Assembly (NCBI GenBank): GCA_049286965.1
Contig: JBAQEX010000049.1
Coordinates: 1-37,965, forward strand
DNA length: 37,965 nucleotides
Direction: 5' to 3'
Origin: Microgenomates group bacterium
GTDB lineage: Bacteria > Patescibacteriota > Microgenomatia > UBA1400 > UBA12108
The translations under genes were made by a program, and so were the position numbers. The notes under the pieces are model-generated. The model was not told the origin of the DNA and ran no database searches. It was given only the letters and a program-made list of their open reading frames with translations. Of this stretch, positions 13,458 to 34,618 are shown piece by piece; the stretch's first letter is position 1; every line of letters starts with the position of its first letter.

Positions 13458-13458
13458 T

Positions 13459-13684: not shown

Positions 13685-13690
13685 AAGCGT

Positions 13691-16465: not shown

Positions 16466-18310
16466 TTACCCGCCAACATTTGGGGCTGCGTTAGATTCCT
16501 GCGGTGGATTGGCCACGGTTTTCTGGCGGTCGACGGCTTCCTGGGGGTTGGTGGTGATTAGAGCGTGTTCTTCGGGCGAAGCCACGACCTTCATGGCTAC
16601 GTGGTTTTGACCGGCGAAGAAGAGGGCTTCCCCGACTTCGGCAGTCAGGAGTAAGTGACGTTCTCCTTGGGAGAGGAAGAAAGTGCTGGCCAGTTTTTCG
16701 ATGGCACTACTACTTTGTTTCATGAGCACCTGGAGGGAAGAGTTTGAGACGATGGCCTTGCCATGGTCGCTCTTGAGGAAGTCTTCGACGTCCTGGGTGA
16801 TGGTGGTAAGCCCCAGGAAGTATTTGCGGGCGCGCTTGGCGATGCCGTAGAGGAAGGTGGCAGAATCTTCGGACTTCATGAGATACCAAGCCTCATCGAC
16901 GACGAGGAGGCGTTTTTTTAAATCTCTTTTTACTTTGGTCCAGATGTAGTCAAGAATAATGAAGATGGCGGTGGGCCTGAGCTCGTCGGTCAAGTTTTTG
17001 ATGCCAAAAACAGTGAGCTGATTGCCAAAGTTCACGTTTGATTTTTGAGAGAAAATACCCTGGAAAGAGCCCTTGACATATTTTTCAAGTCGATCGGCGA
17101 GGCCGCGGGCGACTGACTCTTCCATCCCATTTAAAACTTTGTACAAATCTTCCATCAGTGGAGGCTCGTTTTTGTGGGACGCTGGGTCACGACTAATCCC
17201 CTTCATCTGGTAGGTCATGATGAGAGCGCGGTCGAGGAGGGCTTCTTCTTGTGGATTCATGTCGCCCAACATAATTTTTAGTAAAGAGTGGAGCGAAATA
17301 ATTTTCATGGCGAGCTCATTTTCGTCTGGCTCATCGGTCTGGGGTAGCTCGAACGGGTTGATACGATTGGGGGAACCAAAGGAAAAGTCGATATAGGTGC
17401 CACCAATGGCGTCGTTGAGTTTGCGGTACTCGTCCTCGGGGTCGATGACGATGACTTCGGTGTCAAAGAGGAGGGAACGGAGAATCTCGAGCTTGACCAT
17501 GTAGGACTTGCCTGACCCCGACTTGGCGAAGACCACCATGTTGGCATTTTCGAGGGTGAATCGGTCGAAGACAACGAGTGAGTCATTGTGTTCATTGATG
17601 CCGTACATAATCCCCTCGTTAGCGGTGAGCTCACTACTAGTGAAGGGGAAAGTGGTGGCGAGGCTGGTTGTATCCATGTTGCGATTCATTTTGAGTTTGT
17701 CCAGGCCGGTGGGGAGAGTAGTCTTAAATCCATCCTCTATCTGGAGTGAGGCGGTTTTGGCAACGATGAGGAGGGCACCAAGGGCGGACTTGATGTGATT
17801 AGTGACACGGTCGAGGACGTCCTTTTTGTCGTCGCGGATCGTGATATAGAGCCCAAACTGGAAGAAGCGCTCGGCGCCTTTGGCTAGCTGTTCCTGGAGA
17901 GAGCGGGCATCTTCGAGCTTGACTTGGGTGTCGATATTGATGATGCGACCCCTTTGGATATCTCCCTGGAGCTCAGCTTCCATCTCGGCAATCTTCCTGC
18001 GCAAATCTTCTATGACCCCCTTGCCGTCGACGGGATAGATAAACATGGAAATGGAAAGGGAATGGGGGAAGTTGATAAGGGGGCTGAGCCAGTTGGCGTT
18101 GACGAAGCGAGGGTAGCCAGCCACAAAGAGGGTGCGGTAGTAGGTATCGTTGATTTTGATGTCGCTCCAGTCCACCTCGATGGCTTCTGGGGCAATAATG
18201 TCTTTGACGTTGGTGGTGCCCCGCGAGAGCATGGTGACGGCGGTGGAGACGGCAGGTCCAGAGCTAAGAGAATCTTCTTTTTTGCCACCAAGGGAGAAGG
18301 GCAGTTTCAT
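16466..18310 (-). CDS. virB4: VirB4/TrbE-family type IV secretion ATPase
   Basis: Walker A VFAKSGSGKSY and Walker B RLLVVDEAWYLM. N-terminal VirB4-type region VKDIIAPEAIEVD..YYRTLFVAGYPRFV. 614 aa. Confidence 0.85.
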   Translation of the reverse strand: MKLPFSLGGKKEDSLSSGPAVSTAVTMLSRGTTNVKDIIAPEAIEVDWSDIKINDTYYRTLFVAGYPRFVNANWLSPLINFPHSLSISMFIYPVDGKGVIEDLRRKIAEMEAELQGDIQRGRIINIDTQVKLEDARSLQEQLAKGAERFFQFGLYITIRDDKKDVLDRVTNHIKSALGALLIVAKTASLQIEDGFKTTLPTGLDKLKMNRNMDTTSLATTFPFTSSELTANEGIMYGINEHNDSLVVFDRFTLENANMVVFAKSGSGKSYMVKLEILRSLLFDTEVIVIDPEDEYRKLNDAIGGTYIDFSFGSPNRINPFELPQTDEPDENELAMKIISLHSLLKIMLGDMNPQEEALLDRALIMTYQMKGISRDPASHKNEPPLMEDLYKVLNGMEESVARGLADRLEKYVKGSFQGIFSQKSNVNFGNQLTVFGIKNLTDELRPTAIFIILDYIWTKVKRDLKKRLLVVDEAWYLMKSEDSATFLYGIAKRARKYFLGLTTITQDVEDFLKSDHGKAIVSNSSLQVLMKQSSSAIEKLASTFFLSQGERHLLLTAEVGEALFFAGQNHVAMKVVASPEEHALITTNPQEAVDRQKTVANPPQESNAAPNVGG

Positions 18311-18337
18311 ATATTAAAAGTATACAGCACTGCCCTT

Positions 18338-18452
18338 AGTACCAATAGGGTCTGACCTTCCGCGCTTAATATATCTCGCGGTTGGGCACTTCCTTTAAGG
18401 TCAGACCCTCTTGCGGCTTACTGTTTGCTGAGATTGGGAGTTGCAGTCTAAA
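18338..18452. repeat. Family-A element, copy A5 (short form plus tail), intercistronic upstream of virB4
   Basis: 13-bp perfect TIR AGGGTCTGACCTT / AAGGTCAGACCCT (18347-18359 / 18397-18409). Tail is CTTGCGGC..TTGGGAGTTGCAGTCTA. The internal stem CCGCG/CGCGG covaries with CCCGC/GCGGG of A3. Confidence 0.85.
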
Positions 18453-18460
18453 TAGTTTGT

Positions 18461-19099
18461 TTATTTAGTTATGTTGGGGGCGACGACGGCCTGCTCGTAA
18501 TCGGAGGCGGTCGTGAACTTTTGACCCTTGACGGTTGAGTTGTAAAAACTATGGAAAAGCTGCATTAGGTTTTGAGAGTTTAGTTGTCTGGCGCTTAGGC
18601 CGATCCGGCCCAATTGTTTAACAATATGATCTCTTTTTGGTTCTAGGTCTGCTTTGGCTTTTTGGATGAGGTCTTCGGTGATTTCGACCCTACCTGACAA
18701 AGTAATAAACTGATACGAGACGATGAGATAGAATTTTTTGTCGAGGACGTTTTGTTCGGTGATCGTGGTATCGATAAACTGGCGATAACTATGCATCCGC
18801 TCTTTGAGAACTTCGTTTTTCAATTTTTTCTCTTGGCTGGCCAATAACTCGAGGTAGGCGCTGATATCTTTTTTCTCGGATTTGATAACGATTTGGATAG
18901 GGAATGAGAGGGAATTGAGGAGGCCTGCGTAGGCATAGATGGTGGCGTCTTGTTCCTCTTCGGAGAGGAGACCAAAATTGATGGCAGAAGCCTGGATGAC
19001 AATACTACAAATGCCGTCTTTTAAGATAACAAGATCGTCCTGGATGGTTTCGACATCTAGGTGATCTTGGGTGGTGGCGACAATGATTGAGTCAGACAT
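18461..19099 (-). CDS. Hypothetical cytoplasmic protein resembling a stand-alone VirB4 N-terminal domain
   Basis: No TM and no Walker motifs. ..VILKDGICSIVIQASAINFGLLSEEEQDATIYAYAGLLNSLSFPIQIVIKSEKKDISAYL.. resembles the N-domain pattern of Gram-positive VirB4/TrsE-like proteins. Start is ATG 19099 (MSDSIIV) or 19126. Confidence 0.5.
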   Translation of the reverse strand: MSDSIIVATTQDHLDVETIQDDLVILKDGICSIVIQASAINFGLLSEEEQDATIYAYAGLLNSLSFPIQIVIKSEKKDISAYLELLASQEKKLKNEVLKERMHSYRQFIDTTITEQNVLDKKFYLIVSYQFITLSGRVEITEDLIQKAKADLEPKRDHIVKQLGRIGLSARQLNSQNLMQLFHSFYNSTVKGQKFTTASDYEQAVVAPNITK

Positions 19100-19117
19100 A
19101 GGACTATCGTAGCATAT

Positions 19118-19187
19118 AGTACCCATAAGGTCAGACCTTCTGACGGCACGTTGATTACTGTCATTGGGAATTGCAGTCCGACCAACC
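19118..19187. repeat. Family-A element, copy A6 (truncated: one terminus plus tail module)
   Basis: TAGTACCCATAAGGTCAGACCTTCTGACGGC..TTGGGAATTGCAGTCCGACCAACC. The tail is near-identical to the A4 tail. Sits between the stop at 19193 and the next gene's start. Confidence 0.75.
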
Positions 19188-19192
19188 TTGGG

Positions 19193-20185
19193 TCAATTCG
19201 ACGCTTGGAGCTCGATGGGGGAGAGGATGGTGTTGTTGACCACAAGACTCTGCGGGGCAAAAGTAAGGCCCATCCGATCTACTTCGATGATATAGCTAGA
19301 CGGGGTGAGGGGAGTGGAAGTATAAAACTGACCGAGTGAGTTGGTTTTCATGGCGCGCTGGGGGATGCCATCGGAGCTGACGATTTGGACGATGGCATTT
19401 TCTACCAACTTGCCACCCTGGTCTACGACAACCCCGGTGATCAAATTGGGGGTTTTGGGGGGAGCAGGGAGCGTGATGTTTTTGGGGATAGGTGCGGTTG
19501 CGCGGACAGTGGCCTTTGGGGCCGAGGGGGCGGCAAAGACCACATTGGTAGATGGGGCGGGGGTTGGCACTACCATTATGGTTGGTGTGGCCGAGTCTGT
19601 TGGATTTGCGACAACTGGGTGTGGTGTGACACCGGAAACTTCGGTGGCGGGCTTTAGCTTGCGTACGACGATGCTCGGCCTGGAGACGTCTTCTGACATA
19701 ACTGCGCCTTGAGTCTGGGTGATTTGGGGCAAACTCGTAAAAATGCTGTCGAGAGATTTGACGATGCTGGCCTCTTGATCGCTCAAGTCAGAGAGAGGGG
19801 CTGGTGAATGATTGATGTTTGGAGCCTTGATGGTTTTAGTGATTGTATTTACTGCACCCTGAGCGCGCGCGGTGAATAAAAACAACCCAGGGATTTTGTT
19901 GGTTTTTTGCCAGGTGAAGCGGGTCGGGCGATAGATGGCTTTAACAAAGGCTGTAATCCACTGGTCGAGGGGGCGGTCTTCGACGGGGAAAAATGCTAAG
20001 CCGGCGCCAAAGAGGATGGATAAGATGACGAGGGGCCATTTGACGATAAAGATCAGGTTGCTGGCGAAAAATAGATAGGCTAGTACGAGACCACCGGCAA
20101 GTTCGAGGAATTGTTTGAGAGTCATGTCTCCTACCAGGCGAAACTGGTACTGAGTGACGTTTTGGGGGATGGGGTGTTGCTGCAT
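19193..20185 (-). CDS. PrgI-family (VirB3-like) membrane protein fused to a Pro/Thr/Ala-rich linker and a carboxypeptidase-regulatory-like beta-sandwich domain
   Basis: N-terminus IPQNVTQYQFRLVGDMTLKQFLELAGGLVLAYLFF plus a second TM, the PrgI pattern. C-terminus ITGVVVDQGGKLVENAIVQIVSSDGIPQRAMKTNSLGQFYTS..YIIEV. Confidence 0.65.
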   Translation of the reverse strand: MQQHPIPQNVTQYQFRLVGDMTLKQFLELAGGLVLAYLFFASNLIFIVKWPLVILSILFGAGLAFFPVEDRPLDQWITAFVKAIYRPTRFTWQKTNKIPGLFLFTARAQGAVNTITKTIKAPNINHSPAPLSDLSDQEASIVKSLDSIFTSLPQITQTQGAVMSEDVSRPSIVVRKLKPATEVSGVTPHPVVANPTDSATPTIMVVPTPAPSTNVVFAAPSAPKATVRATAPIPKNITLPAPPKTPNLITGVVVDQGGKLVENAIVQIVSSDGIPQRAMKTNSLGQFYTSTPLTPSSYIIEVDRMGLTFAPQSLVVNNTILSPIELQASN

Positions 20186-20189
20186 ATAT

Positions 20190-21311
20190 TTATTTTAATA
20201 AGTAACTTGAGATTTGTCCGTCTAACAGTCTTAGTGTTAGGTGAGTATCAGTGGCACCAATTAATTTTTGATAATTTATAATTGGCAAGGTGATGTTTTT
20301 TTTGATAACACCATTTTCGTATATGTTTACAATAACACCATCTTTAGTTCTTCTCACTATAATTGGGAGATTGCTCGACCAAGCCACATCACCGACAGCC
20401 TCTGTATCATATGGCTCTTCGGTTATGGCGTTATATATTATTGCTGTTTGACCGGCAACAAGAATAGAATCTTTATTGTCGTTGACTACACAGTAGTTTG
20501 CTTTCCAGGACATTGTTTGTTGTGAGTCACTAAGATTAATTATCCTACAGACAGAGGCCAATTCTCCATCTGCCTCAGCAACCAATAATAGTTGATTATT
20601 TTGTAGAACGTCTAGGGTTGTGGCGTCTGTCTGCAATATAACAGCATTTATTTTAGTTACCAAATCTATCTTGATCAAATCAGATTTTCTCGTGAGAGGG
20701 CTGCTATTAGTTAAGAGATAGACAAAATGACCATCACCACCGATTGTGGCTGCTTCAATGTTTTTACCAGAAGGCGAGATGATATTTTTTTTGGTGTTAT
20801 CAACAACATTGAGAACAGTAGCCATTGTTTTTGTTTTTTCATCTAAGACAACAATCCACGGATAATTGTTTGACCACCTTCGAACCTTGCCTTGATAAAT
20901 AATTCTTGGACTAGCCCCATCAGAATATTCCATGAGGTTCCCCGTGATTTTATCTATTCCCACCAAGCCAATCTTTGTCTCTTTCATATTTACAGACAAG
21001 AAGCCTTGAGTATCAAAATTTAATTCGGGTTTTTCATCGAGTGTTATGTTAATCTTTTTTTGCTTGGGGATGTTGATGGAGATTTTTTTGTCAACGTACC
21101 CATTTTTTTTAAAGGATAATTCATAATCTCCCCTTTTAAGCATGGGAGTCTTTGTAAAAAACTCATCGCTGTCAATATATACGTGGGAATCTGGGGGATC
21201 TATCGATATTTTTAGACCATATTGCCAGTTGAGGTATATTGACGCTGATGCAAAAAAAAGCAATATTGCAGCTAATCCTATGCCTGATGCTAAATAATAT
21301 TTTTTATTCAT
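20190..21311 (-). CDS. Membrane-anchored PEGA-domain protein with a beta-rich C-terminal region
   Basis: N-terminal TM (LASGIGLAAILLFFASASIYL). PEGA-like LKISIDPPDSHVYIDSDEFFTKTPMLKRGDYELSFKKNGYVDKKISINI. Very AT-rich gene. Confidence 0.6.
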   Translation of the reverse strand: MNKKYYLASGIGLAAILLFFASASIYLNWQYGLKISIDPPDSHVYIDSDEFFTKTPMLKRGDYELSFKKNGYVDKKISINIPKQKKINITLDEKPELNFDTQGFLSVNMKETKIGLVGIDKITGNLMEYSDGASPRIIYQGKVRRWSNNYPWIVVLDEKTKTMATVLNVVDNTKKNIISPSGKNIEAATIGGDGHFVYLLTNSSPLTRKSDLIKIDLVTKINAVILQTDATTLDVLQNNQLLLVAEADGELASVCRIINLSDSQQTMSWKANYCVVNDNKDSILVAGQTAIIYNAITEEPYDTEAVGDVAWSSNLPIIVRRTKDGVIVNIYENGVIKKNITLPIINYQKLIGATDTHLTLRLLDGQISSYLLK

Positions 21312-21321
21312 AATTGGTTGG

Positions 21322-24174: not shown

Positions 24175-24204
24175 TCTATCATCTGAGAATGGTATAATTT
24201 GGGC
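24175..24204. promoter_or_regulatory. 30-bp divergent intergenic region with TATAAT (24193-24198) 6 nt upstream of ATG 24205
   Basis: GGTATAATTTGGGCATG. The region is too short for conventional 5' UTRs on both sides. Confidence 0.35.
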
Positions 24205-27200: not shown

Positions 27201-27528
27201 CTTGATGGTGAACAAATATGGTAGGTGGGAAAAAGAGATGAAAACGGAAGTTTTCTTCCCCGGAGAAAGTTTGATGAGTAGATATAAATACTTGGAGACA
27301 TGGGGATTTGAGGATGTAGAGATGTCTATGCGATTCTTGGTAGGTAAAGGAATTTTTACAAGAAAAGATGGGGATGCAATTTTGAAGAGAAAGTATGGAA
27401 ACGCACTTTGGCGATGGATACGTAGATCAATACAATTAAATGATTGGGAATATTTCTGGATCCAACTAGAGAAGGATGGAAACAAAGAACTACAGAGTAT
27501 CTTTAAGTATGTATTTTCTGCGAAATAA
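24205..27528 (+). CDS. Large (about 1107 aa) soluble Lys/Glu-rich hypothetical protein, opposite strand to the rest of the cluster
   Basis: Uninterrupted 3.3-kb ORF in AT-rich DNA. No TM, signal peptide or recognisable domain. The ORF-track start 24199 is TTG; ATG at 24205 (MAEKEKL). Confidence 0.7.
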   Translation: MAEKEKLSEVKELEKMVRSGETDAGGEDKDGLKFLEQLMVFMKLKLLRKTTETGEVKKETLDGLEKDLLGSDQDKKQKANTKLEELLKKVVGIETGIDEQPIDVLIAKAKMPSDQRDLATSLEMRVVHLKNGEYAGDKKAEAESIAKGFLQIGESVGILKTGEKTKEQIVTKLNAELAEVSEIKRRVEVVKVQGEMSTEKGAKERASAAKSKSLEFVNKELKDGDNKLTKVRLGKGADREGQKLQGEVNRLLKIVQEDMTGLTIEQHLGTKECITRLYEINRISKLVSKFDFPRELEDHLFEMQLPYMDRLKNTLQADKVTNGEQVYDFVKEIWYSKKLLNPDELNEKLHSIAGDSGRNEKKKGKKVVPADELSENNEDPLDFINKTLGLDQREKRMRGALMVEKIKDIMDANNLDIRSISNTFKGRTREEFAQAMQHNYGFDQEQANLFYDSIFSNRAAVRNETFNDFINRKDYKGYTGALISYLSKVGLREGMNDLELMSLMNSARITLAEAGPEGERLLEVFKSFESMAFFHDKYFNLGAKEYAEILNHLGDGPLWVWLQEHADVLREEITFKEGSRKGEKASISVLEFHDMMQSQYWAKRLAYTAPIRESELFDEMMYSHLLNGDEPIKIMENGDIFDMNKKLLGNKNQEVSVDGGDPIKMSVLTLDSRWKVGTAQDIWRFTGRNLNILDDINIATALGVNKGLLGISKICRYSEQYEFISSYQHEIMGADTFLYDFDWYKNTFGKGMKKLIGEAGIEPKQAELIQKIISKHIMSKRRVGEEVFDGSNLAMEDVKLLANGTKLMTFDEAKAEYLGRLAKRGEKISNIHIDPTDANDKYAMQVNLLMEKWNDNAFSAEEMAQINALPWDKINKIYAKRLGKESIGNDFSSFINNFSYARISEYVDSLRGTDMKDYGGYYAIAAEAVAGAIKAGLSNGSSEALAKMIGAMETYHPYDANGLNRLGMAMWEQILTWRTHKLTRRVPVKSGGYILPNGDLMVNKYGRWEKEMKTEVFFPGESLMSRYKYLETWGFEDVEMSMRFLVGKGIFTRKDGDAILKRKYGNALWRWIRRSIQLNDWEYFWIQLEKDGNKELQSIFKYVFSAK

Positions 27529-27543
27529 TTAATTCTCGGTTTT

Positions 27544-29064
27544 CTATTTTGATCTTTCTCCAGGTCCAAACGCTGATCCACTAATCCCTGGGGCGCGGAT
27601 TTGTCCGGCCAACATCTTGGATTGTAGGCGGGCCGCGCGTTCTTGTTGGAGACTGGAAATGTAGGCTTTTGGTAGGTATGAAGCAGCGCCATAACCCTGG
27701 CCAAGACCAGCCATGATCTCGGAGGTGTATTTGCTCTGCTCGACCTTGAGGGCGTCACGAGTCATCTGAGCAGCAACGGGAACCATCATAATGATGAATA
27801 CTCCAAGTAATGCCATAAAAGTTTCTTGAATGCTTGCTGGGACATCAACGTCAGATGTATCAATAAATGTCAAAAATGGCGGAACCCACTTACTAGAACT
27901 ATTACCATCTGCTTGGAGGATACCAACTCCAGTGTTGACAGTAAATGGATTAGAATCATTTGCGTTTAGAGCCAACTTTTCTGTTCCAGGACCCATGAGG
28001 ATAGCTCCAAACAGGAGCATGGCCAGAACTGTGGGGAAGACGGCGGCATTGGCCAATAGATTGCGAATCCAGTTTGAGAATGATTTAGAACCAGGAATGC
28101 CATTCATGAGTAGTTGTAGAGGAGAGACAACTGTAAGCACAATGATCATAAAATATGACTGCATTAGCTGCCAAAGTGTTTTAAACATTCCAATTAAAAT
28201 TCCAAGTCCGATAACTGCAAAGGCTATGGGTTTGGAGATGCCACCGATCTTGTCCAGTCCACTGGCATCTGTCACTTGTTGGGCGAACCCTGATATTGCC
28301 CTGGCAGCGATAGCCTGGACTGCGTCTTTGCCATGAAGCATTGAATACATAATATTGGTATTTAGAACCTTGTCCATGACGCTGCCGGCATCTTTGATTA
28401 AATTTGATGCTTGTGCAATATAGACGATCAAATACATTGACAGGTAGATTAAATCAATCACAAATCCTGCAATTGCGTAGGAAAAAGTAATAAGGAGGAG
28501 AGTGACTAGAAGATTTGGAAGACTATTTTGGATAGAAATGATGGTTTGTGCATTGATTTTCGTCCTCAGCATAATCATGACACCAATGACCAGGAAGATG
28601 ATGATATAGAGAGAGTAGGCTAGATTGCGAAAAGCCTTCCAGATTTGTAATACGGGTGATAATGCCTTATATCCGATGCCTTGAGCTTGTACTTTGGTGA
28701 ACCCTGGGAGACCAATATTGTTGCCTAGATCTGCAACGTATTCACTGCTAGAAATGGGTGGGACCATAAGGGCGGTTGTTACAAAGTTTGTTATTCGCGG
28801 AGTGATGCCTTCTACAGCTTGTTTTCCATCGGATGAAGGGGAGTATCCAACTATATATTTTTCTTGAGACATGGATTCTGAACTGACAACTTGACCAATA
28901 TCTGATTCAGACGAGCATCCGCTTATACTACAACCTACCGCATAAGTATAAGTTTCAAATAGTCCGCGACTAGGGGCGACAGTGCCTGTGGCGGCAAAAG
29001 TGTTTTTGGTCGATAAAGCGAGGCCTAGGAAGATGATGAGGGTAGAGAAAAAGAGCTTTTTCAT
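27544..29064 (-). CDS. VirB6/TrbL-like polytopic membrane protein
   Basis: Signal peptide MKKLFFSTLIIFLGLALSTKNTFA. Multiple TM helices over about 350 aa with a hydrophilic C-terminal tail. Position inside the T4SS-like cluster. TACAAT lies 6 nt upstream of the ATG. Confidence 0.55.
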   Translation of the reverse strand: MKKLFFSTLIIFLGLALSTKNTFAATGTVAPSRGLFETYTYAVGCSISGCSSESDIGQVVSSESMSQEKYIVGYSPSSDGKQAVEGITPRITNFVTTALMVPPISSSEYVADLGNNIGLPGFTKVQAQGIGYKALSPVLQIWKAFRNLAYSLYIIIFLVIGVMIMLRTKINAQTIISIQNSLPNLLVTLLLITFSYAIAGFVIDLIYLSMYLIVYIAQASNLIKDAGSVMDKVLNTNIMYSMLHGKDAVQAIAARAISGFAQQVTDASGLDKIGGISKPIAFAVIGLGILIGMFKTLWQLMQSYFMIIVLTVVSPLQLLMNGIPGSKSFSNWIRNLLANAAVFPTVLAMLLFGAILMGPGTEKLALNANDSNPFTVNTGVGILQADGNSSSKWVPPFLTFIDTSDVDVPASIQETFMALLGVFIIMMVPVAAQMTRDALKVEQSKYTSEIMAGLGQGYGAASYLPKAYISSLQQERAARLQSKMLAGQIRAPGISGSAFGPGERSK

Positions 29065-29085
29065 AAGGGTATTGTACTAGATTTT

Positions 29086-31389
29086 TTAATTACCCGCACA
29101 GGTTTTTGGCGCTCCGATTGGAGGCAATGGAGAAGGACAGTTTCTGGCGTATTCACAGATCCATTGTGCATATGGTTTGCCCTTCATGATTCCGCAACCA
29201 CTATAGGCATTGGTGGCTCGATAAAGTTCCGAGGTAGAGACATTGGCCTTGGTAGCATTACAGTCATATGATCCTGAATAATAACCATAGGCGTTGAGTT
29301 TTTGCAGAAGTGTCCTAGCTGCCAGCTCAAGACTACCCTCAAGGCTACAGCGTGAAATTTTAGTAACATCGGAACATTGTGATTTTTCAGCGGAGGCAGA
29401 GGGGAAACGCTCATTGTCACAAGTCGCCAATTTGTAGGCAGAAGCAGATATCTGAAGCGGCCCCATGACTTTATAATCTGTCTCTTCAACACAAGCTGAT
29501 CCCATTTTGGCTGTCGCCCCTTCATACATAAACATTCCTTCAAGCCATTTACCTGGGATACCATACTTGCTGCCAACACGGTTTGCAGCATCTGATATTT
29601 CAGCAGCTGTAGGGGTAGAGCTACAAATAGAACCAGATGATCCAGAACTAGGTAAACCACAAGTATTTGTGGCGGTGCCGAGGGCTACCATGCTGGGAGT
29701 ATTGGCATAATCTTTGCGATCTGGACCTTTACAGGCCAAGAAGGTTGAGAAGTTGTATTTGATAGTATTTGAAGTGCGATCATTTAGAGGGAAAAATTCT
29801 CCACCCTCAGTTCCGACTGCATTGACCGCTGAGTTGGTGAGATAAGTATTTTTGGCTAGCTCGGTACTGGCGGTGAGGATCTCATAAGAAGGTTTTTCTA
29901 GATATCTTTCGGCTTGGGACCAAAAATCTCCTACCATACCGGTCCTTACTTTAATATCTAGAAAGCTGAGAACTGCATCGGTGGCGATTGCAAAGATGGA
30001 TGGCTTAGATTCTGTGCTTATGGCGCTGGCGTCTTGGATGTCTATATTTTCCTCTGAATATTTGGGCATCCTGGGAGGAGGAAGAACATTATTGTAATAA
30101 ATATTTGGATAATCTAAAATTTGTCCAAATTGCATGGCCACTAAAGGAGTATATTTTGTAATGGTTTTACCAGAGGCCTTATTAGCACCATATACTAGTT
30201 GAGTGGGAAGATATTTAGGCTCTGTAAAAGACTGGGTGAAATAATGTGAAATGAATGGGATGCTCTTACCCATTTCTGACAATATTTTATCTCCGTTTCC
30301 ACTTGGGTTCATAAAAGTTGCGTCAATAATCCTACCCTCTGTACCTTGTCTGGAAGCCAAATTGTCGACAATAGTTCCTTTGTTAAATGGAATATTTAGA
30401 GGACCTAGTGGCACAACAACTGAGCCAATGGCTAAGCCTGGAGCGCTTGTGTTGTTTGGGTAGAGAGGAGTACAGTCAAAATATTTAATCCAATCTTCCC
30501 CAGCCAATTTATCTTGCTGGTACAGATAGTACCACTGAGCAAACCAAGTGCTTTTGCGGAGGTAGCTGGGGACGGGGGGGAGATCTCCCCGCGAATCATC
30601 GGATTCTGTTTCCCAGATATGTTTATAGCTAGGCGGCTTCATTTCGTCTGGGAGTTTACTTTTGTAGAGATCTAAGAGGTTGATGGTACTACCATCTATT
30701 TGGAGTTCTTCTAGCCAGTTGATACCACCGATTGGCATCTCTTTATCTATGTTCCCCTTGCTTTGATAAGTGATAGAGGTGGCATAAGCGCGCCACAAGA
30801 GGCTCAACTTGAGCTTGGCTTGGATATTCCCAGGTAGGAGGAGATCGTGGGCGCCGTATGCCAAGTTGTTGGTGGTACCGCTACACTGGCTAGCGGAAAA
30901 CAGGTGATTGTAGCTTTGCCACCCTGGCACCGGTAGATTGTCTATACCACTACTGTCTGAACCTAAAAAATTTGGCTTGTAATTGATAGGTTTTTGAAAA
31001 TTGCACGTACCAACAGTGGAGGAGTCATCATCTGGATAAGTTTTCTGGCAACTGCCAGACACGGGTACATCTTTGACGGCGTTGTTTTGGAGGGGATACT
31101 GGATTTTGGCTACAGCTTTGCAGGCATTGGGGTCCGTGGTGATGCAGGCGGATCCACCCAATTCTGCCTCGTTTAGGACAATAGTCGGTTCTGGGGCACC
31201 CAGATCACCGTGTGGTAGAACTTCTAGATCTTGATCGGCCATGTAGCCAGTGAGCATTTGGGTATAGATATCGACGTTGTAATTGGTTTCTGGTTGAGTG
31301 GCAAAGATAGTCCGTGGGGACGTGCCCAATAAACAAGTTAGTCCAAAAACAGTGAGGATAATTTGCAGGACCCTAGATCTAGTAACCAT
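29086..31389 (-). CDS. 767-aa secreted Cys-rich protein with C-terminal lytic-transglycosylase (SLT)-like region
   Basis: Signal peptide (VLQIILTVFGLTCLLGTSPRTIFA). About 20 Cys residues. C-terminus GIPGKWLEGMFMYEGATAKMGS..VMGPLQISASAY..ATNAYSGCG resembles the SLT E-S / GLMQ / AYNxG pattern. Confidence 0.45.
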   Translation of the reverse strand: MVTRSRVLQIILTVFGLTCLLGTSPRTIFATQPETNYNVDIYTQMLTGYMADQDLEVLPHGDLGAPEPTIVLNEAELGGSACITTDPNACKAVAKIQYPLQNNAVKDVPVSGSCQKTYPDDDSSTVGTCNFQKPINYKPNFLGSDSSGIDNLPVPGWQSYNHLFSASQCSGTTNNLAYGAHDLLLPGNIQAKLKLSLLWRAYATSITYQSKGNIDKEMPIGGINWLEELQIDGSTINLLDLYKSKLPDEMKPPSYKHIWETESDDSRGDLPPVPSYLRKSTWFAQWYYLYQQDKLAGEDWIKYFDCTPLYPNNTSAPGLAIGSVVVPLGPLNIPFNKGTIVDNLASRQGTEGRIIDATFMNPSGNGDKILSEMGKSIPFISHYFTQSFTEPKYLPTQLVYGANKASGKTITKYTPLVAMQFGQILDYPNIYYNNVLPPPRMPKYSEENIDIQDASAISTESKPSIFAIATDAVLSFLDIKVRTGMVGDFWSQAERYLEKPSYEILTASTELAKNTYLTNSAVNAVGTEGGEFFPLNDRTSNTIKYNFSTFLACKGPDRKDYANTPSMVALGTATNTCGLPSSGSSGSICSSTPTAAEISDAANRVGSKYGIPGKWLEGMFMYEGATAKMGSACVEETDYKVMGPLQISASAYKLATCDNERFPSASAEKSQCSDVTKISRCSLEGSLELAARTLLQKLNAYGYYSGSYDCNATKANVSTSELYRATNAYSGCGIMKGKPYAQWICEYARNCPSPLPPIGAPKTCAGN

Positions 31390-31391
31390 AT

Positions 31392-31673
31392 CTATAGACC
31401 AAGCTTAAAGTTTGTTACTCTTGCACCGGTTATATTTTCAATTAAAAGGAGTATTAACCAGCTGCCTATGGCCATGGCAATGCCAGCGATGGCTCCACCC
31501 ATAATTGCCTTGCCTTTTTTCATAGAGTCAGGGTTGCCGGCTCCTGCGAGAAAGGTGAATCCGCCCACGAGAATCATAATGAATGAGATGATGCCAATGA
31601 GGGGGATGATGGCAATCAAAACATTTCCGATGTATTTAGACAAATCTGTGATTTGAGCTGCATCTTCGTTCAT
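31392..31673 (-). CDS. T4SS pilin-like small membrane protein (paralog 7, divergent)
   Basis: Two hydrophobic helices flanking LVGGFTFLAGAGNPDSMKKGKAIMGGAIAGIAMAIGSW. TATAAT (31680-31685, minus strand) lies 6 nt upstream of the ATG. Confidence 0.6.
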   Translation of the reverse strand: MNEDAAQITDLSKYIGNVLIAIIPLIGIISFIMILVGGFTFLAGAGNPDSMKKGKAIMGGAIAGIAMAIGSWLILLLIENITGARVTNFKLGL

Positions 31674-31691
31674 GGTCTCATTATAACAAAC

Positions 31692-31717
31692 AAAAAGTCC
31701 CCTTGCGGGGACTTTTT
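31692..31717 (-). terminator. Rho-independent terminator after the six-gene pilin array
   Basis: AAAAAGTCCCC-TTGC-GGGGACTTTTT. On the minus strand the GC stem is followed by TTTTTGTTTGTT. Confidence 0.8.
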
Positions 31718-31738
31718 GAATATAAATAACTCAAAGAC

Positions 31739-32089
31739 TTAGTAGGCTTTGGGAGGGGTGATGTTGCCACCCAAGATGTCGATACCAAAGAAGTACTGGA
31801 TGATGAGCATGACTGCCCAGGCAGAGGCTACGACTGCGAGACCCACTAGTGCAGCGGTGATGCGATCGCGAGCTTCTTGAGTTTTGCCTTTGTCTCCACC
31901 TGAACTAATCCATTGGATGCCACCCCAAATGAGGAAAGCAAAAACCATGAGGGCTGAAACTAGGAGTGCTCCTTGGACGGCACCTTTAATGAGGGTACCA
32001 ATATTGGTGATTGCAACACCTTCTGGTTTGCTGATAGATAAGTCCGGAGCCGCTGGGGCTGCTTGGGCTAATTTGACTAGAAATGACAT
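31739..32089 (-). CDS. T4SS pilin-like protein (paralog 6)
   Basis: IWGGIQWISSGGDKGKTQEARDRITAALVGLAVVASAWAV core shared with paralogs. RBS AAGGAG. Confidence 0.7.
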   Translation of the reverse strand: MSFLVKLAQAAPAAPDLSISKPEGVAITNIGTLIKGAVQGALLVSALMVFAFLIWGGIQWISSGGDKGKTQEARDRITAALVGLAVVASAWAVMLIIQYFFGIDILGGNITPPKAY

Positions 32090-32127
32090 ATATTTATCTC
32101 CTTTTCTTAATATTAGTTTTTATTTTA

Positions 32128-32430
32128 TCATTTAGCAAGGCCGATACCAAAGAAATAGTCGATGAGGAGGTAAACGGCCCAGGCAGAGGCCACAATGGCC
32201 AGCCCTACAATCCCATTGGTTATTTTGCTTCTGGCTTCTTCGAGCTTGCCCTTGTCGCCGCCACTCATGATCCACTGGAGGCCGCCGTAAATTAAATACA
32301 TAAAAGTGGCAAGACCCGCGACTAAAATAATTGCAGAAAATGATTTGCTGACGAAAGTACCAAGGTCCGTATTGATCGCAACTCTTGACTTGGCTTCGTC
32401 ACCGATATTTATGTCAAATGTTTTTGCCAT
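32128..32430 (-). CDS. T4SS pilin-like protein (paralog 5)
   Basis: IYGGLQWIMSGGDKGKLEEARSKITNGIVGLAIVASAWAV. Confidence 0.7.
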   Translation of the reverse strand: MAKTFDINIGDEAKSRVAINTDLGTFVSKSFSAIILVAGLATFMYLIYGGLQWIMSGGDKGKLEEARSKITNGIVGLAIVASAWAVYLLIDYFFGIGLAK

Positions 32431-32434
32431 ATGA

Positions 32435-32776
32435 TTATCCTGTTGTGGGCCATTTAAAGTTTAATAAGTCCATGCCAATTGCGGTCTCGATGAATTTGAC
32501 GATGACATAGGAAGCAGCCAAGAGGGCTAAACCTACTAGGCCCTGGGTGATTTTGCCTCGAGCCTCTTCGATCTTGCCTTTGTCACCGCCAGCTGTGATC
32601 CAAGTGATACCACCGAGTAAGAGATAGAGTAGAAAGGCAAGTCCGCCCACCAGGATAATGGTCTGCCAGAGCGTGGCAATTGTGACGGCAAATTGCTGGG
32701 CTTGACCATCCCCAGATTTACCACCTCCTGGAACTGCTAGATTGGTGATTTGAGCAAAGGCTCGTTTAATAAGCAT
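32435..32776 (-). CDS. T4SS pilin-like protein (paralog 4)
   Basis: LLGGITWITAGGDKGKIEEARGKITQGLVGLALLAASYVI. Start trimmed to ATG 32776 (MLIKRAF), 4 nt after the upstream stop at 32781. Confidence 0.7.
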   Translation of the reverse strand: MLIKRAFAQITNLAVPGGGKSGDGQAQQFAVTIATLWQTIILVGGLAFLLYLLLGGITWITAGGDKGKIEEARGKITQGLVGLALLAASYVIVKFIETAIGMDLLNFKWPTTG

Positions 32777-32780
32777 ATAT

Positions 32781-33155
32781 TTATTGGAACTTGATAGCTC
32801 CCCCTGTAAGTATTGCGGCAGGATTGAGTATATTGATCCCGAGCGCTTTACCAATGATCCAAGTAATTGAGTAAGAGAGGGCGATCACGATGAGGCCGAT
32901 TGCTCCATTTGTCATCATACCCTTGGCTTTGTCGATCTTGCCTTTGTCGCCGCCAGCCGTAATCCAGTTGAGACCACCCAAGAGGAAATAAAGTACGAAA
33001 GCGAGCCCAGCTACGATAGTAAGAACCACCAGAACATTACTGATAAGCCTTTCTATGGCACTGGCGGCACCACCTGCACCAACACCAGGTTGATATCCAC
33101 CTGGAGTAGTGATGGTGGTAAAGTCGATCCCACCGGCTGCTAAATATTTGGTCAT
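32781..33155 (-). CDS. T4SS pilin-like protein (paralog 3)
   Basis: LLGGLNWITAGGDKGKIDKAKGMMTNGAIGLIVIALSYSI. ATGA overlap with the upstream gene. Confidence 0.7.
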   Translation of the reverse strand: MTKYLAAGGIDFTTITTPGGYQPGVGAGGAASAIERLISNVLVVLTIVAGLAFVLYFLLGGLNWITAGGDKGKIDKAKGMMTNGAIGLIVIALSYSITWIIGKALGINILNPAAILTGGAIKFQ

Positions 33156-33511
33156 CTTGTAAAACTCCCTGGCCCAATAATTTTAGGGGTAAGTATGGCG
33201 CTGGCGCTGCCAAATAATACATAAGAAACTATGCCAGTGACGGCGGCTGCAGCCACCATAACCACCAAGCCCATGAGAGACATATTGATGGACTGTGTTG
33301 CAGCGTCGATCTTTTTTTGATCTCCGCCGGCGGTAATAAAGCTAAATCCAGATATCATAAGATTGAAAAAGGCGTAGAGCCCGCCGGCGATAAAAATAAT
33401 AGTAATAATGTTTGAAATAAAAGAAGGGAGGCCGGTGTTTACATTGCCATAACCATTGGCACTAAATTTGCTGAGTGGATTGATGACTTCTGTACCAATT
33501 AATCCTGCCAT
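33152..33511 (-). CDS. T4SS pilin-like protein (paralog 2)
   Basis: MISGFSFITAGGDQKKIDAATQSINMSLMGLVVMVAAAAV. Confidence 0.65.
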   Translation of the reverse strand: MAGLIGTEVINPLSKFSANGYGNVNTGLPSFISNIITIIFIAGGLYAFFNLMISGFSFITAGGDQKKIDAATQSINMSLMGLVVMVAAAAVTGIVSYVLFGSASAILTPKIIGPGSFTR

Positions 33512-33513
33512 AA

Positions 33514-33831
33514 TTATAAACTCGAATTTAGTATTTGTACTCCTGTAATGACCTGGATAATTTGGATAATCCAGTATGAAGCGAAGAGCACTAATAGGCC
33601 TATTATAGCAGAGGTGATAGTTTTGGTGCCCTCCTGGATTTTACTAGAGTCTCCAGCATGGGAAATGATGGTAAAGCCGCCAAAGATGATCATAAAGAAA
33701 ATGATAAGCCCTGCGGCCGTATAGACGTTTGGCAAGACGTTGTTGATCAAATCCCCAACGCCCGTATAGGTGGTGGTAGCGCTAGAATTTTGGAAGCGTA
33801 GGCAGTCGCCTAGGTTTGTGGGACATGACAT
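33514..33831 (-). CDS. T4SS pilin-like protein (paralog 1, first gene of the array)
   Basis: IFGGFTIISHAGDSSKIQEGTKTITSAIIGLLVLFASYWI. Confidence 0.65.
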   Translation of the reverse strand: MSCPTNLGDCLRFQNSSATTTYTGVGDLINNVLPNVYTAAGLIIFFMIIFGGFTIISHAGDSSKIQEGTKTITSAIIGLLVLFASYWIIQIIQVITGVQILNSSL

Positions 33832-34404: not shown

Positions 34405-34618
34405 TTTTATTGCAGAGTTGGAAAATAAAGTAGTAGAACAGCAAAGGCTCGCAAATACGCAAATGATCCCAGATTGGGCTAGGGGAGTGGGCAACTGGCT
34501 GGCCACCAATCCGTGGCGAGTGCTCGTGCCAATGAGCGCATTGGCTTATGGCTTGTTACGCATGACATATGGCAGTAGTTTTAGAGAATTAATACTTGGT
34601 TTATTTGGAGGATTTTAA
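34388..34618 (+). CDS. Small single-pass membrane protein, candidate anti-sigma factor
   Basis: Overlaps the sigma gene's 3' end. One TM (WRVLVPMSALAYGLL). No zinc-binding anti-sigma motif seen, so the call rests on position only. Confidence 0.4.
   Translation: MKAESSFIAELENKVVEQQRLANTQMIPDWARGVGNWLATNPWRVLVPMSALAYGLLRMTYGSSFRELILGLFGGF

What the first reader, a model, noticed from the sequence alone, without database searches (positions are those of the whole stretch)
16466..33831. Origin-adjacent, relaxase-less minimal T4SS-like envelope machine with unusual accessory giants
Seen: a 17-kb cluster encodes the following proteins.
- A VirB4 ATPase with Walker A/B motifs.
- A stand-alone VirB4-N-domain-like protein.
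- A PrgI/VirB3-like protein.
- A PEGA-domain protein.
- A 950-aa TM protein ending in an M23 peptidase.
- A VirB6/TrbL-like polytopic protein.
- A 767-aa Cys-rich secreted protein with an SLT-like end.
- Seven VirB2-like pilin paralogs.
- A 1109-aa orphan on the opposite strand.
Established: Gram-positive-type minimal T4SSs combine VirB1-like hydrolases, VirB3, VirB4, VirB6, a VirB8-like protein and a VirD4 coupling ATPase, and conjugative ones add a relaxase. Not seen anywhere in the window: VirD4/FtsK-like ATPase, relaxase, VirB8/9/10/11-like genes, integrase, or flanking att repeats. The cluster abuts dnaN and shares the genome's own repeat family A (copies A5, A6). It therefore looks like resident chromosomal machinery rather than an ICE. 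Inference: it is a pilus or contact apparatus used for host-cell attachment, DNA uptake (as in the Helicobacter ComB system) or effector delivery in an episymbiotic small-genome bacterium. Its composition and accessory proteins are not those of a described T4SS class.
Basis: partly seen in the sequence, partly recalled or inferred. Interest (0 to 1): 0.8.

Follow-up and report, generated by a model that had tools for sequence, protein, structure and literature searches.

The report
Patescibacterial chromosomal type IV secretion locus
This is the origin-adjacent, relaxase-less type IV secretion/pilus gene cluster that ultra-small Patescibacteria (here a Microgenomatia relative of Collier-/Woesebacteria) carry in their chromosome; it is real, but the class was described in 2023-2025, so this is a new member rather than a new kind.

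Summary
Profile searches confirm seven of the nine labels:
- a VirB4 ATPase;
- a detached VirB4 N-domain (TrsD-like);
- PrgI/VirB3;
- a borderline PEGA domain;
- an M23 peptidase at the end of a 950-aa membrane protein;
- seven VirB2-like pilins;
- a real 1107/1109-aa gene on the opposite strand.

The "VirB6-like" and "SLT-like" labels have only weak, non-significant support.

The cluster sits between dnaN and housekeeping genes. The same order recurs in dozens of Microgenomatia genomes, so it is resident chromosomal machinery and not an ICE.

This system is already published: an essential T4SS in Southlakia (Cell 2023) and a phylum-wide survey (Microb Genom 2025). That survey reports TrsD, PrgI, VirB2 arrays of 2-11 genes, relaxase absence and dnaA/dnaN proximity. 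The claim of an undescribed class therefore fails.

I did not find these points in the papers I read:
- The ATPase, TrsD, PrgI and the seven pilins are highly conserved (VirB4 more than DnaA). The pilins keep a fixed order with one-to-one orthologs.
- The large accessory proteins are hypervariable or swapped as cassettes.
- A domain-less cytoplasmic giant lies convergent with the polytopic protein in 68 of 82 loci.
- An ECF sigma module flanks the pilin array.

Novelty: new member of a known kind. Interest about 0.3.

The parts
16466..18310 (-). VirB4 ATPase (MPF_FATA / CD1110 family) that lacks its own N-domain
   Evidence: NCBIfam conju_CD1110 at 405 bits (cut-off 325), aligned to profile positions 167-734/752. 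Pfam P-loop_TraG, AAA_10 and DUF87. Walker A at residues 262-269. It is 94-96% identical to relatives whose DnaA is 84% identical.
18461..19126 (-). TrsD-like stand-alone VirB4 N-terminal domain
   Evidence: It aligns to positions 12-173 of conju_CD1110 and 110-289 of VirB4_plasma. TrsD NF041427 at 1e-6, Pfam TraC_F_IV at 5e-4. It is 83-90% identical in relatives.
19193..20185 (-). PrgI/VirB3-like membrane protein, joined by a Pro/Thr-rich linker to a C-terminal CarboxypepD_reg-like beta-sandwich
   Evidence: Pfam PrgI at 32.9 bits (residues 5-89) and CarboxypepD_reg at 2.5e-5 (residues 249-307). The same two-domain architecture occurs in relatives.
20190..21311 (-). Bitopic protein with an N-terminal TM helix and a PEGA-like beta-sandwich; occupies a variable cassette position
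   Evidence: PEGA at 21.6 bits against cut-off 20.8, one TM segment. No homolog was found in any of 85 related loci. Even the closest relative carries a 207-aa Big_5-like bitopic protein at this position.
21322..24174 (-). 950-aa membrane protein with a C-terminal M23 peptidase; candidate cell-wall-opening component (VirB1 analog)
   Evidence: Peptidase_M23 at 47 bits, residues 831-913, with TM segments at 631-748. The family was found in 21 loci by iterated profile search. The C-terminal enzyme domain is exchangeable: CHAP-like in L005/L001 and unrecognised in L006, although the first 764 aa are 76% identical.
24205..27528 (+). Opposite-strand 'giant' (1107 aa from the ATG at 24205; 1109 aa from the TTG at 24199); cytoplasmic, helical, with no recognisable domain
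   Evidence: No TM segment and no Walker A motif. No Pfam, NCBIfam or PHROG hit. Only 9 hits among 1.8e9 cluster representatives. The AF2 model has pLDDT 71 and no meaningful match in PDB or BFVD. An equivalent ORF lies convergent with the polytopic gene in 68 of 82 loci; none of 38 scanned has a confident Pfam domain (one marginal DUF5805 hit, E=8.8e-4).
27544..29064 (-). Polytopic 506-aa membrane protein, the putative VirB6 equivalent
   Evidence: About 6-7 TM segments. The family is widespread in Microgenomatia, with 438 hits and no Pfam domain. AF2 pLDDT is 71, and the top Foldseek PDB hits are 8rtd_L and 7o3v_J, which are TrwI/VirB6 chains, at E=0.2 and probability 0.91. There is no sequence-profile support.
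29086..31389 (-). 767-aa secreted Cys-rich protein with a possible lytic-transglycosylase-like C-terminal region
   Evidence: 19 Cys and an N-terminal hydrophobic leader. The Cys at positions 82, 90, 114, 129, 553, 577 and 764 are conserved, and P612 and E623 are invariant in the family. The best PDB profile hit is the SltB catalytic motif at E=0.63, which is not significant. No Pfam SLT hit.
31392..33831 (-). Array of seven VirB2-like pilin genes: 31392-31673, 31739-32089, 32128-32430, 32435-32776 (probable ATG start; the ORF from TTG runs to 32854), 32781-33155, 33152-33511 and 33514-33831
   Evidence: All seven hit PF18895 T4SS_pilin, six of them above the gathering cut-off. Each has two TM helices. 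Paralogs are 19-58% identical to each other. One-to-one orthologs, in the same order, are 52-99% identical in L006/7/14/15/16/34 (L009 is missing one slot), and the same order persists at 32-59% identity in L029/33/36.
33871..34968 (+). ECF-type sigma factor (33871-34404) with two small downstream ORFs (34370-34618, and 34618-34968 which is multi-TM), divergent from the pilin array; candidate regulator
   Evidence: Sigma70_r2 and r4_2. A sigma homolog was found in 45 related loci, typically directly divergent from the first pilin and followed by a small protein with about 2 TM helices. The regulatory link is inferred, not shown.
18339..18459 (.). Palindromic repeat copy in the VirB4|TrsD spacer
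   Evidence: Repeat families D1, D8 and D11, alignment. The RNA fold on the minus strand has z = -3.5.
19119..19189 (.). Repeat copy (3' module) in the TrsD|PrgI spacer
15050..15174 (.). Context: DnaA-box cluster in the dnaA-dnaN spacer (putative oriC), about 1.3 kb from the VirB4 stop codon
   Evidence: Five boxes with at most one mismatch, one of them perfect, within 125 bp. dnaA lies at 13676-15040 and dnaN at 15284-16381.

Best explanation
The cluster is the chromosomal, Patescibacteria-type type IV secretion system, derived from the monoderm MPF_FATA conjugation machinery. The host is a Microgenomatia bacterium related to Collier-/Woesebacteria.

Shown here:
- The energising ATPase is a VirB4 whose N-domain is encoded separately (TrsD-like).
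- It sits with a VirB3-type PrgI protein, seven membrane-hairpin VirB2-type pilins, a membrane protein carrying an M23 cell-wall peptidase, a polytopic membrane protein and a large disulfide-rich secreted protein.
- The locus lies between dnaN and housekeeping genes, and many genera share the same order.

Inferred mechanism:
- The VirB4/TrsD hexamer docks on PrgI and on the polytopic (VirB6-position) protein in the cytoplasmic membrane.
- VirB4 extracts pilins from the membrane and polymerises them into a heteromeric pilus or conduit.
- The conduit passes through a gap cut in the cell wall by the M23 domain and by the possible transglycosylase.
- The structure contacts the host bacterium and supports epibiotic growth by moving macromolecules in or out. 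It does not serve conjugation.

The conserved engine is paired with fast-evolving or swappable surface and accessory parts: the hydrolase domain, the bitopic beta-sandwich protein, the secreted protein and the cytoplasmic giant. I read these as the host-specific interface or cargo.
For: Identity of the core:
- VirB4 CD1110 equivalog above its cut-off, with TrsD completing the N-domain.
- PrgI, M23 and seven T4SS_pilin hits.

Taxon:
- The nearest VirB4 and polytopic-protein homologs all come from Collier-, Woese-, Gottesman-, Chisholm-, Beckwith- and Roizmanbacteria or unnamed Microgenomates.

Resident locus:
- The same gene order and the same housekeeping flanks (dnaN/dnaA/rnpA/yidC on one side; ECF sigma, NUDIX and GHMP kinases on the other) occur in about 40 full-length loci.
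- There is no relaxase, T4CP, integrase or tRNA in the window.

Purifying selection on the engine (window against L001 unless stated):
- VirB4 94%, DnaA 84%, TrsD 83%, DnaN 73%, PrgI 68%.
- Pilin orthologs are 52-99% identical, in fixed order.

Hypervariable periphery:
- In the same comparisons the giant, the M23 protein and the PEGA protein are undetectable by BLAST.
- Profile iteration and hhalign still link the giant and M23 families.

Literature:
- The same kind of system is essential for epibiotic growth in Southlakia, where it lacks recognisable coupling and relaxase proteins and carries an essential pilin array (PMC10633639).
- The phylum-wide survey matches each feature (PMC12102498).
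Against: - No experiment exists for any Microgenomatia system. Pilus formation by a monoderm T4SS remains hypothetical even in Saccharibacteria.
- The VirB6 and transglycosylase assignments are not statistically supported.
- No VirB8-like protein was recognised.
- The window is a single 38-kb contig, so a T4CP or relaxase elsewhere in the genome cannot be excluded. A VirD4-like gene elsewhere is in fact likely.
- 'Origin-adjacent' rests on dnaA/dnaN synteny and DnaA boxes only. GC skew shows no sign change anywhere in the window.
Confidence: 0.8

Rival explanations
1. The region is an ordinary integrative conjugative element or plasmid remnant, with its relaxase, coupling protein and integrase lying just outside the window.
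For: The VirB4 belongs to a family typical of conjugative transposons (conju_CD1110; the Mycoplasma ICE VirB4 model scores 279 bits). GC content drops to 0.39-0.42 across 20-28 kb, against 0.45-0.50 nearby.
Against: Both borders lie inside the window and are housekeeping genes (dnaN; sigma, NUDIX and GHMP kinases). The same borders and gene order occur in dozens of species-level genomes on contigs up to about 1 Mb. There is no integrase, tRNA or att-like flanking repeat. VirB4 is more conserved than DnaA, which indicates vertical inheritance under strong selection. Only 103 of 3,035 Patescibacteria genomes encode any relaxase.
Confidence: 0.03
2. The machine is a DNA or nucleotide import system, analogous to Helicobacter ComB or the archaeal Ced system.
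For: Patescibacteria lack nucleotide synthesis, and reviews propose the T4SS as an uptake route (PMC11665869). VirB4 has weak similarity to CedB (53 bits). No coupling protein or relaxase is present in the locus.
Against: The CedB score is far below its cut-off of 700, while the conjugative VirB4 family scores 405 bits. No ComB/VirB7-10 homologs are present. In Southlakia the T4SS is essential but comEC-dependent competence is dispensable, so its essentiality cannot be explained by natural transformation. No nuclease or DNA-binding domain was found in any cluster protein.
Confidence: 0.12
3. The machine is an effector translocator. The hypervariable, domain-less cytoplasmic giant encoded convergent with the polytopic gene is its dedicated substrate, or an adaptor for substrates.
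For: The giant has no signal peptide or TM segment. Its position is conserved in 68 of 82 loci. It evolves far faster than the engine, as expected for a host-interacting effector. Its C-terminal half is the conserved part, with invariant W/R residues near the C-terminus.
Against: There is no experimental or structural evidence. The fold searches are uninformative. Fast evolution also fits a non-essential or scaffold protein. No T4CP, which usually recruits substrates, lies in the locus.
Confidence: 0.2
4. The ATPase is not a T4SS VirB4 but a HerA/FtsK-type or phage terminase-like translocase belonging to an unrelated apparatus.
For: Pfam DUF87 (HerA central domain) scores 35 bits. phrog_2666, labelled 'terminase large subunit', hits residues 49-300 at 1.7e-28.
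Against: The VirB4 equivalog score (405 bits, above its cut-off) dwarfs both hits. The P-loop_TraG, AAA_10 and CagE_TrbE_VirB hits, together with neighbouring PrgI, TrsD and VirB2 pilins, form a coherent T4SS set. No other phage gene is present. The PHROG label is probably an annotation error.
Confidence: 0.01

Closest known systems
Patescibacteria-clade T4SS (Quinonero-Coronel et al. 2025, Microb Genom 11:001409, PMC12102498), and specifically the essential SEML1_0006-0019 locus of Ca. Southlakia epibionticum (Wang et al. 2023, Cell, PMC10633639)
   Same: An MPF_FATA-type VirB4. A stand-alone TrsD next to virB4. PrgI/VirB3. An array of sequence-divergent VirB2-like pilins. Peptidoglycan hydrolases (M23) in the locus. 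No relaxase or coupling protein in the locus. Chromosomal position beside dnaA/dnaN.
   Different: This locus is from Microgenomatia, not Saccharimonadia. The survey reports VirB6 as 'scarce' in this class; here a conserved 500-aa polytopic family occupies the VirB6 position with only weak structural support. I did not find the following in the papers I read: the convergent domain-less giant, the ECF sigma module (the word 'sigma' does not occur in the main text of the 2025 survey), the fixed-order one-to-one pilin orthology, and swapping of the hydrolase domain. The supplements and figures were not inspected.
Monoderm conjugative MPF_FATA systems (C. difficile CTn CD1110 family, pGO1 TrsC/TrsD/TrsE, pCF10 PrgI/PrgJ/PrgK/PrgH, Mycoplasma ICE Mbov_0395/0397)
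   Same: The VirB4 family (NCBIfam equivalog met). TrsD-like and PrgI-like partners. A large membrane-anchored cell-wall hydrolase. Sub-threshold similarity of one pilin to the Mycoplasma ICE 'pilin-like' protein (23 bits against cut-off 40).
   Different: No relaxase, T4CP, oriT context or integrase. A seven-gene VirB2-type pilin array, which Gram-positive systems generally lack. No VirB8-like protein was recognised. The locus is vertically inherited and chromosomal.
Diderm MPF_T systems (A. tumefaciens VirB, R388 Trw)
   Same: VirB2-type two-helix pilins (PF18895). VirB3 and VirB4 logic. The top structural match of the polytopic protein is TrwI/VirB6.
   Different: No VirB5, VirB7-VirB11 or VirD4 homologs. 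The envelope is monoderm. The sequence profile comparison with TrwI is null.

Membership tests
Patescibacteria-clade T4SS (MPF_FATA-derived) | VirB4 ATPase of the MPF_FATA type | tested here: met
   NCBIfam conju_CD1110 at 405 bits, above the cut-off of 325. The nearest homologs, at 72-96% identity, are all from CPR/Microgenomates. No phylogenetic tree was built.
Patescibacteria-clade T4SS (MPF_FATA-derived) | Stand-alone TrsD (VirB4 N-domain-like) gene adjacent to virB4 | tested here: met
   The 221-aa protein aligns to positions 12-173 of the VirB4 model, and matches TrsD NF041427 at 1e-6.
Patescibacteria-clade T4SS (MPF_FATA-derived) | PrgI/VirB3 homolog | tested here: met
   Pfam PrgI at 32.9 bits, above the gathering cut-off of 27.
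Patescibacteria-clade T4SS (MPF_FATA-derived) | VirB2-like pilin array near virB4 | tested here: met
   Seven PF18895 hits, six above the gathering cut-off. The published range is 2-11 genes per array.
Patescibacteria-clade T4SS (MPF_FATA-derived) | Chromosomal locus without a relaxase, near dnaA/dnaN | tested here: met
   The locus is convergent with dnaN. No relaxase was found in the window. Synteny holds across about 40 loci.
Patescibacteria-clade T4SS (MPF_FATA-derived) | Required for epibiotic growth | not testable with these tools
   This is known only from Tn-seq in Southlakia.
Conjugative T4SS / ICE | Relaxase and type IV coupling protein (VirD4/TcpA) | tested here: not met
   No such Pfam or NCBIfam hit in any window ORF of 200 aa or more. 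The rest of the genome is not available.
Conjugative T4SS / ICE | Integrase and att/tRNA borders | tested here: not met
   No integrase, no tRNA and no flanking direct repeats bounding the cluster. The borders are conserved housekeeping genes.
VirB6/TrbL (PF04610) - 506-aa protein | Sequence-profile match to VirB6/TrbL | tested here: not met
   None of 68 family members hits TrbL at E<=1. hhalign against TrwI gives probability 0.14.
VirB6/TrbL (PF04610) - 506-aa protein | Polytopic helical fold resembling VirB6, encoded within a T4SS locus | tested here: inconclusive
   At least 6 TM segments. The top Foldseek PDB hits are the TrwI/VirB6 chains 8rtd_L and 7o3v_J, but with E=0.2 and 2.2 and TM-scores of 0.25-0.39.
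Lytic transglycosylase (SLT) - C-terminus of the 767-aa protein | SLT-domain profile match with a catalytic Glu | tested here: inconclusive
   No Pfam hit at E<=1. The family profile against PDB gives the SltB catalytic motif at E=0.63, aligned to the invariant E623.
ComB-type DNA-uptake T4SS | ComB/VirB7-B10 envelope core | tested here: not met
   No VirB7-10 hits.
HerA/FtsK translocases | Best profile match is HerA/FtsK rather than VirB4 | tested here: not met
   DUF87 scores 35 bits against 405 bits for the VirB4 equivalog.

The most novel reading that the evidence does not exclude
In Microgenomatia the T4SS locus couples an ultra-conserved VirB4/TrsD/PrgI/seven-pilin engine to a positionally fixed but hyper-divergent cytoplasmic giant of 700-1500 aa with no known domain or fold match, encoded convergent with the VirB6-position gene. 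The most novel reading not excluded by the evidence is that this giant is the system's dedicated translocated effector or host-range determinant. Alternatively, it could be an unrecognised substitute for the missing coupling or substrate-processing proteins. Under either reading the origin-proximal locus would be an arms-race cassette that sets which host bacterium each lineage can exploit.
Probability: 0.2. Interest if true: 0.7.

Novelty: new member of a known kind. Interest (0 to 1): 0.3.

Why it matters
The function of the Patescibacteria T4SS is a recognised open question. It is essential in the one species tested, and its substrate is unknown. This window does not open that question further, because it is one more example of the published class.

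The comparison with 85 related loci adds some practical leads for whoever studies the system:
- The core is more conserved than DnaA, which marks the parts that are machine.
- The swappable M23/CHAP end, the bitopic beta-sandwich protein, the Cys-rich secreted protein and the domain-less giant are variable, which marks candidate host-specific parts.
- The seven pilins are ancient, ordered orthologs, which argues for a heteromeric structure rather than antigenic variation.
- A neighbouring ECF sigma module is a candidate regulator.

Tried and rejected
1. Pfam, NCBIfam and PHROG scans of the 1109-aa, 506-aa and 767-aa proteins gave nothing.
2. Word-indexed and exhaustive homolog searches for the 1109-aa protein gave only 3 and 9 hits. 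A Pfam scan of 38 positional equivalents gave no confident hit, only one marginal DUF5805 match in one member at E=8.8e-4.
3. The AF2 model of the giant was searched with Foldseek against PDB and BFVD. The best hits were dynein, separase and podovirus internal virion proteins, at TM-score 0.1 or below, and I treated them as noise.
4. For VirB6, three tests gave no sequence support: the family profile against PDB sequences, a per-member Pfam scan at E<=1 and hhalign against R388 TrwI. Only the weak Foldseek ranking remained.
5. For SLT, the C-terminal 179 aa alone gave no Pfam hit at E<=1, and the single sequence gave nothing against PDB.
6. Proteins downstream of VirB4 in more distant loci (L049, L076, L079, L044, L045) were scanned for a T4CP, and none was recognised.
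7. Rfam found no family in the window, including over the repeats.
9. The ICE reading was rejected on synteny. The HerA/terminase reading was rejected on scores.
10. The R388 accession BR000038 was not held; NC_028464 was used instead.

Full report
**1. What is there**

The window (37,965 bp) is a complete metagenomic contig: the database copy of its VirB4 sits on a contig of exactly this length.

Pfam and NCBIfam give the left part a classic origin neighbourhood:
- yidC at 12061-12795(-), with small ORFs for yidD/rnpA beside it;
- dnaA at 13676-15040(+);
- dnaN at 15284-16381(+).

Five DnaA boxes, one of them perfect, cluster in the dnaA-dnaN spacer at 15050-15174.

All are on the minus strand except one.

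**2. Check of each label**

VirB4 (614 aa):
- It reaches the NCBIfam equivalog 'VirB4-like conjugal transfer ATPase, CD1110 family' with 405 bits against a cut-off of 325. HerA-type DUF87 scores only 35 bits.
- Walker A (AKSGSGKS, residues 262-269) and Walker B (LLVVDEAW) are visible.
- The alignment starts at model position 167.

TrsD-like protein (221 aa):
- It covers model positions 12-173 of the same family and also matches TrsD at 1e-6.
- The 'stand-alone N-domain protein' is therefore literally the detached N-domain of this VirB4.

Other confirmed labels:
- PrgI is above its Pfam threshold. The protein carries a C-terminal CarboxypepD_reg-like beta-sandwich that relatives also have.
- PEGA is borderline, at 21.6 bits against a cut-off of 20.8.
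- M23 is solid at 47 bits, at the end of a protein with about three TM helices.
- All seven small ORFs hit T4SS_pilin and have the two-helix VirB2 topology. The fourth most likely starts at the internal ATG (32776), which matches the 112-aa orthologs.

The two labels that could not be confirmed:
- The 506-aa polytopic protein has no TrbL/VirB6 profile match in any of 68 family members and none to PDB sequences. hhalign to R388 TrwI is null. An AF2 model (pLDDT 71) does have the TrwI/VirB6 chains of the R388 structures as its best and fifth-best PDB matches, at E=0.2 and probability 0.91. I verified which PDB entries hold TrwI from the R388 sequence. I rate it a probable VirB6 equivalent, unproven.
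- The 767-aa protein has 19 Cys and a leader. Its family conserves seven of the Cys plus P612 and E623. No SLT profile hit exists. The family profile's best PDB match is the catalytic-Glu motif of lytic transglycosylase SltB, at E=0.63. This is suggestive only.

The negative statements hold for every ORF of 200 aa or more in the window: no T4CP, relaxase, integrase or VirB8-11. There is no tRNA.

The repeat family exists. Copies lie in the VirB4|TrsD and TrsD|PrgI spacers, upstream of dnaA and at 10.4-11.5 kb.

**3. Surroundings and relatives**

VirB4 has thousands of close homologs. The named ones are Collierbacteria or 'VirB4/TraC'.

The polytopic family recovered 80 genome loci from Collier-, Woese-, Gottesman-, Chisholm-, Beckwith- and Roizmanbacteria and from unnamed Microgenomates.

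In about 40 loci long enough to judge, the gene order is the same:
- housekeeping genes (GHMP kinases, NUDIX);
- ECF sigma, divergent from the array;
- 5-8 pilins;
- a large secreted protein;
- sometimes a 170-aa bitopic protein;
- the polytopic protein of about 500 aa;
- a 700-1500-aa ORF on the opposite strand;
- a membrane protein of about 950 aa with a hydrolase end;
- a 200-370-aa bitopic protein;
- PrgI, TrsD, VirB4;
- dnaN and dnaA.

The locus is therefore resident and vertically inherited, and the ICE alternative is rejected.

**4. Two-speed evolution**

Window against L001:

| Protein | Identity |
|---|---|
| VirB4 | 94% |
| DnaA | 84% |
| TrsD | 83% |
| DnaN | 73% |
| PrgI | 68% |

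In the same comparison, BLAST finds no similarity for the giant, the M23 protein or the PEGA protein.

Against the closest relative (L006; VirB4 96%, pilin 2 99%):
- the polytopic protein is 81% identical and the giant 77%;
- the Cys-rich protein is 44% identical;
- the M23 protein is 76% identical over only its first 764 residues, and L006 has no M23 domain;
- the PEGA protein is replaced by a 207-aa Big_5-like protein.

Elsewhere the hydrolase end looks CHAP-like.

Iterated profiles and hhalign still connect the hydrolase and giant families across sub-clusters, with probabilities of 91-99% for several pairs. They are therefore divergent homologs at least among nearer relatives.

The seven pilins are only 19-58% identical to one another. 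However, they have one-to-one orthologs in the same order at 52-99% identity in several genera. The same order persists at 32-59% in more distant ones. This is an old, fixed array, which fits distinct structural roles better than recent amplification for antigenic variation.

**5. The giant**

- It has no TM segment, no signal peptide and no P-loop.
- It has no family hit in Pfam, NCBIfam or PHROGs.
- It gives 9 hits among 1.8 billion cluster representatives, and the C-terminal half is the conserved part.
- The AF2 model is largely helical (pLDDT 71) and has no meaningful PDB or viral match.
- An equivalent ORF lies convergent with the polytopic gene in 68 of 82 loci. None of 38 scanned has a confident Pfam domain; one marginal DUF5805 hit (E=8.8e-4) was seen in a single member.
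- In the window it is packed 24 bp from the start of the M23 gene and 15 bp from the stop of the polytopic gene. It therefore splits the minus-strand genes into two transcription units.

Its role is unknown. An effector, an adaptor or a scaffold are all possible.

**6. Comparison with what is known**

Wang et al. 2023 (PMC10633639):
- They showed by Tn-seq that an unusual T4SS (SEML1_0006-0019) is essential in Ca. Southlakia epibionticum.
- The system resembles Gram-positive conjugative systems. It has an essential pilin series and no recognisable coupling or relaxase proteins.

Quinonero-Coronel et al. 2025 (PMC12102498) surveyed 3,035 genomes and report:
- a monophyletic VirB4 clade nested in MPF_FATA;
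- TrsD as the most frequent partner;
- PrgI;
- VirB6 scarce in Microgenomatia, which they attribute to 'extreme sequence divergence';
- VirB1-like proteins with M23 or LysM domains;
- VirB2 arrays of 2-11 genes, abundant in Microgenomatia;
- relaxases in only 103 genomes;
- VirD4-like T4CPs in 2,918 genomes, mostly far from virB4;
- enrichment of dnaA, dnaN, rnpA and rpmH near virB4.

A 2025 FEMS review lists these systems as the newest T4SS group.

The function is still called 'completely unknown'.

**7. Verdict**

The interpretation as a resident, non-conjugative T4SS-derived machine is supported. The novelty claim is not. The absence of VirD4 cannot be concluded from one contig.

I file this as a new member of a known kind. 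Some comparative details for Microgenomatia appear not to be in the papers I read (section 4, section 5, and the ECF sigma module).

**8. Caveats**

- No phylogenetic tree was built.
- NCBI names for these MAGs are unreliable; many are labelled 'uncultured Pseudomonadales'.
- 'Origin-adjacent' rests on gene synteny and DnaA boxes, while GC skew stays positive across the whole window.
- My ORF calls in the related loci are mechanical.

Noticed in passing
window 10368-10436, 10860-10978, 11385-11453, 13341-13459, 18339-18459, 19119-19189: A modular palindromic repeat of about 150 nt, with an outer stem GGGTCTGACC...GGTCAGACCC, occurs in six copies. Three copies lie in intergenic spacers: upstream of dnaA, VirB4|TrsD and TrsD|PrgI. 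The other three lie in frame inside loop-coding parts of the Wzy-like ORF 10214-11680. The homologous gene of relative L001 has the same core at L001 17392, 17899 and 17949. There is no Rfam match. Only the 18.4-kb copy folds clearly better than shuffled sequence (z = -3.5).
   Followed up: partly
window 1-37965 (dnaA at 13676-15040): GC skew is positive across the whole window and shows no sign change at dnaA/dnaN, despite the DnaA-box cluster at 15050-15174. If oriC is in that spacer, both minus-strand T4SS operons (about 15 kb) are transcribed head-on to replication, and only the giant is co-directional.
   Followed up: partly
window 33871-34968; also L005-L084 next to the first pilin: An ECF-type sigma factor, followed by a small ORF and a small multi-TM protein (a possible anti-sigma), lies divergent from the pilin array with only a 39-bp gap. 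A sigma homolog is present in 45 related loci. It is a candidate dedicated regulator of the locus. The word 'sigma' does not occur in the main text of the 2025 survey; its supplements and figures were not checked.
   Followed up: partly
window 21322-24174 versus L006 14837-17704, L005 15480-18302 and L001 3382-6138: The C-terminal cell-wall hydrolase domain of the membrane protein of about 950 aa is exchanged between close relatives. It is M23 in the window and L003, CHAP-like in L005/L001, and unrecognised in L006. The N-terminal 764 aa stay 76% identical to L006.
   Followed up: partly
window 16466-18310 (VirB4 residues 49-300): PHROG phrog_2666, annotated 'terminase large subunit', matches VirB4 at 1.7e-28. 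This is probably a VirB4-like family mislabelled in PHROGs.
   Followed up: no
window 4453-4506 and 34617-34670: An octamer-periodic CCATTA-type repeat block (AAACCATTAC/TCCATTAG/ACCATTAG...) occurs twice at 85% identity. One copy is at the start of the multi-TM ORF that follows the ECF sigma gene and its small downstream ORF. Its function is unknown.
   Followed up: no
L001 6919-8055 (relative of the window): In the 964-kb relative, an AAA_14/DUF4143 ATPase gene on the opposite strand is inserted between the bitopic protein and PrgI. The locus therefore tolerates insertions at this variable position.
   Followed up: no
window 27544-29064 residues 324-332 versus R388 TrwI residues 191-199: The only stretch that hhalign pairs between the polytopic family and TrwI/VirB6 is the family's invariant P-x-S-x-x-F-x-x-W motif, against TrwI PTHRFFDQW. 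From memory, VirB6 proteins have a functionally important conserved Trp in this region. This is statistically meaningless here (probability 0.14) but is a possible lead.
   Followed up: no
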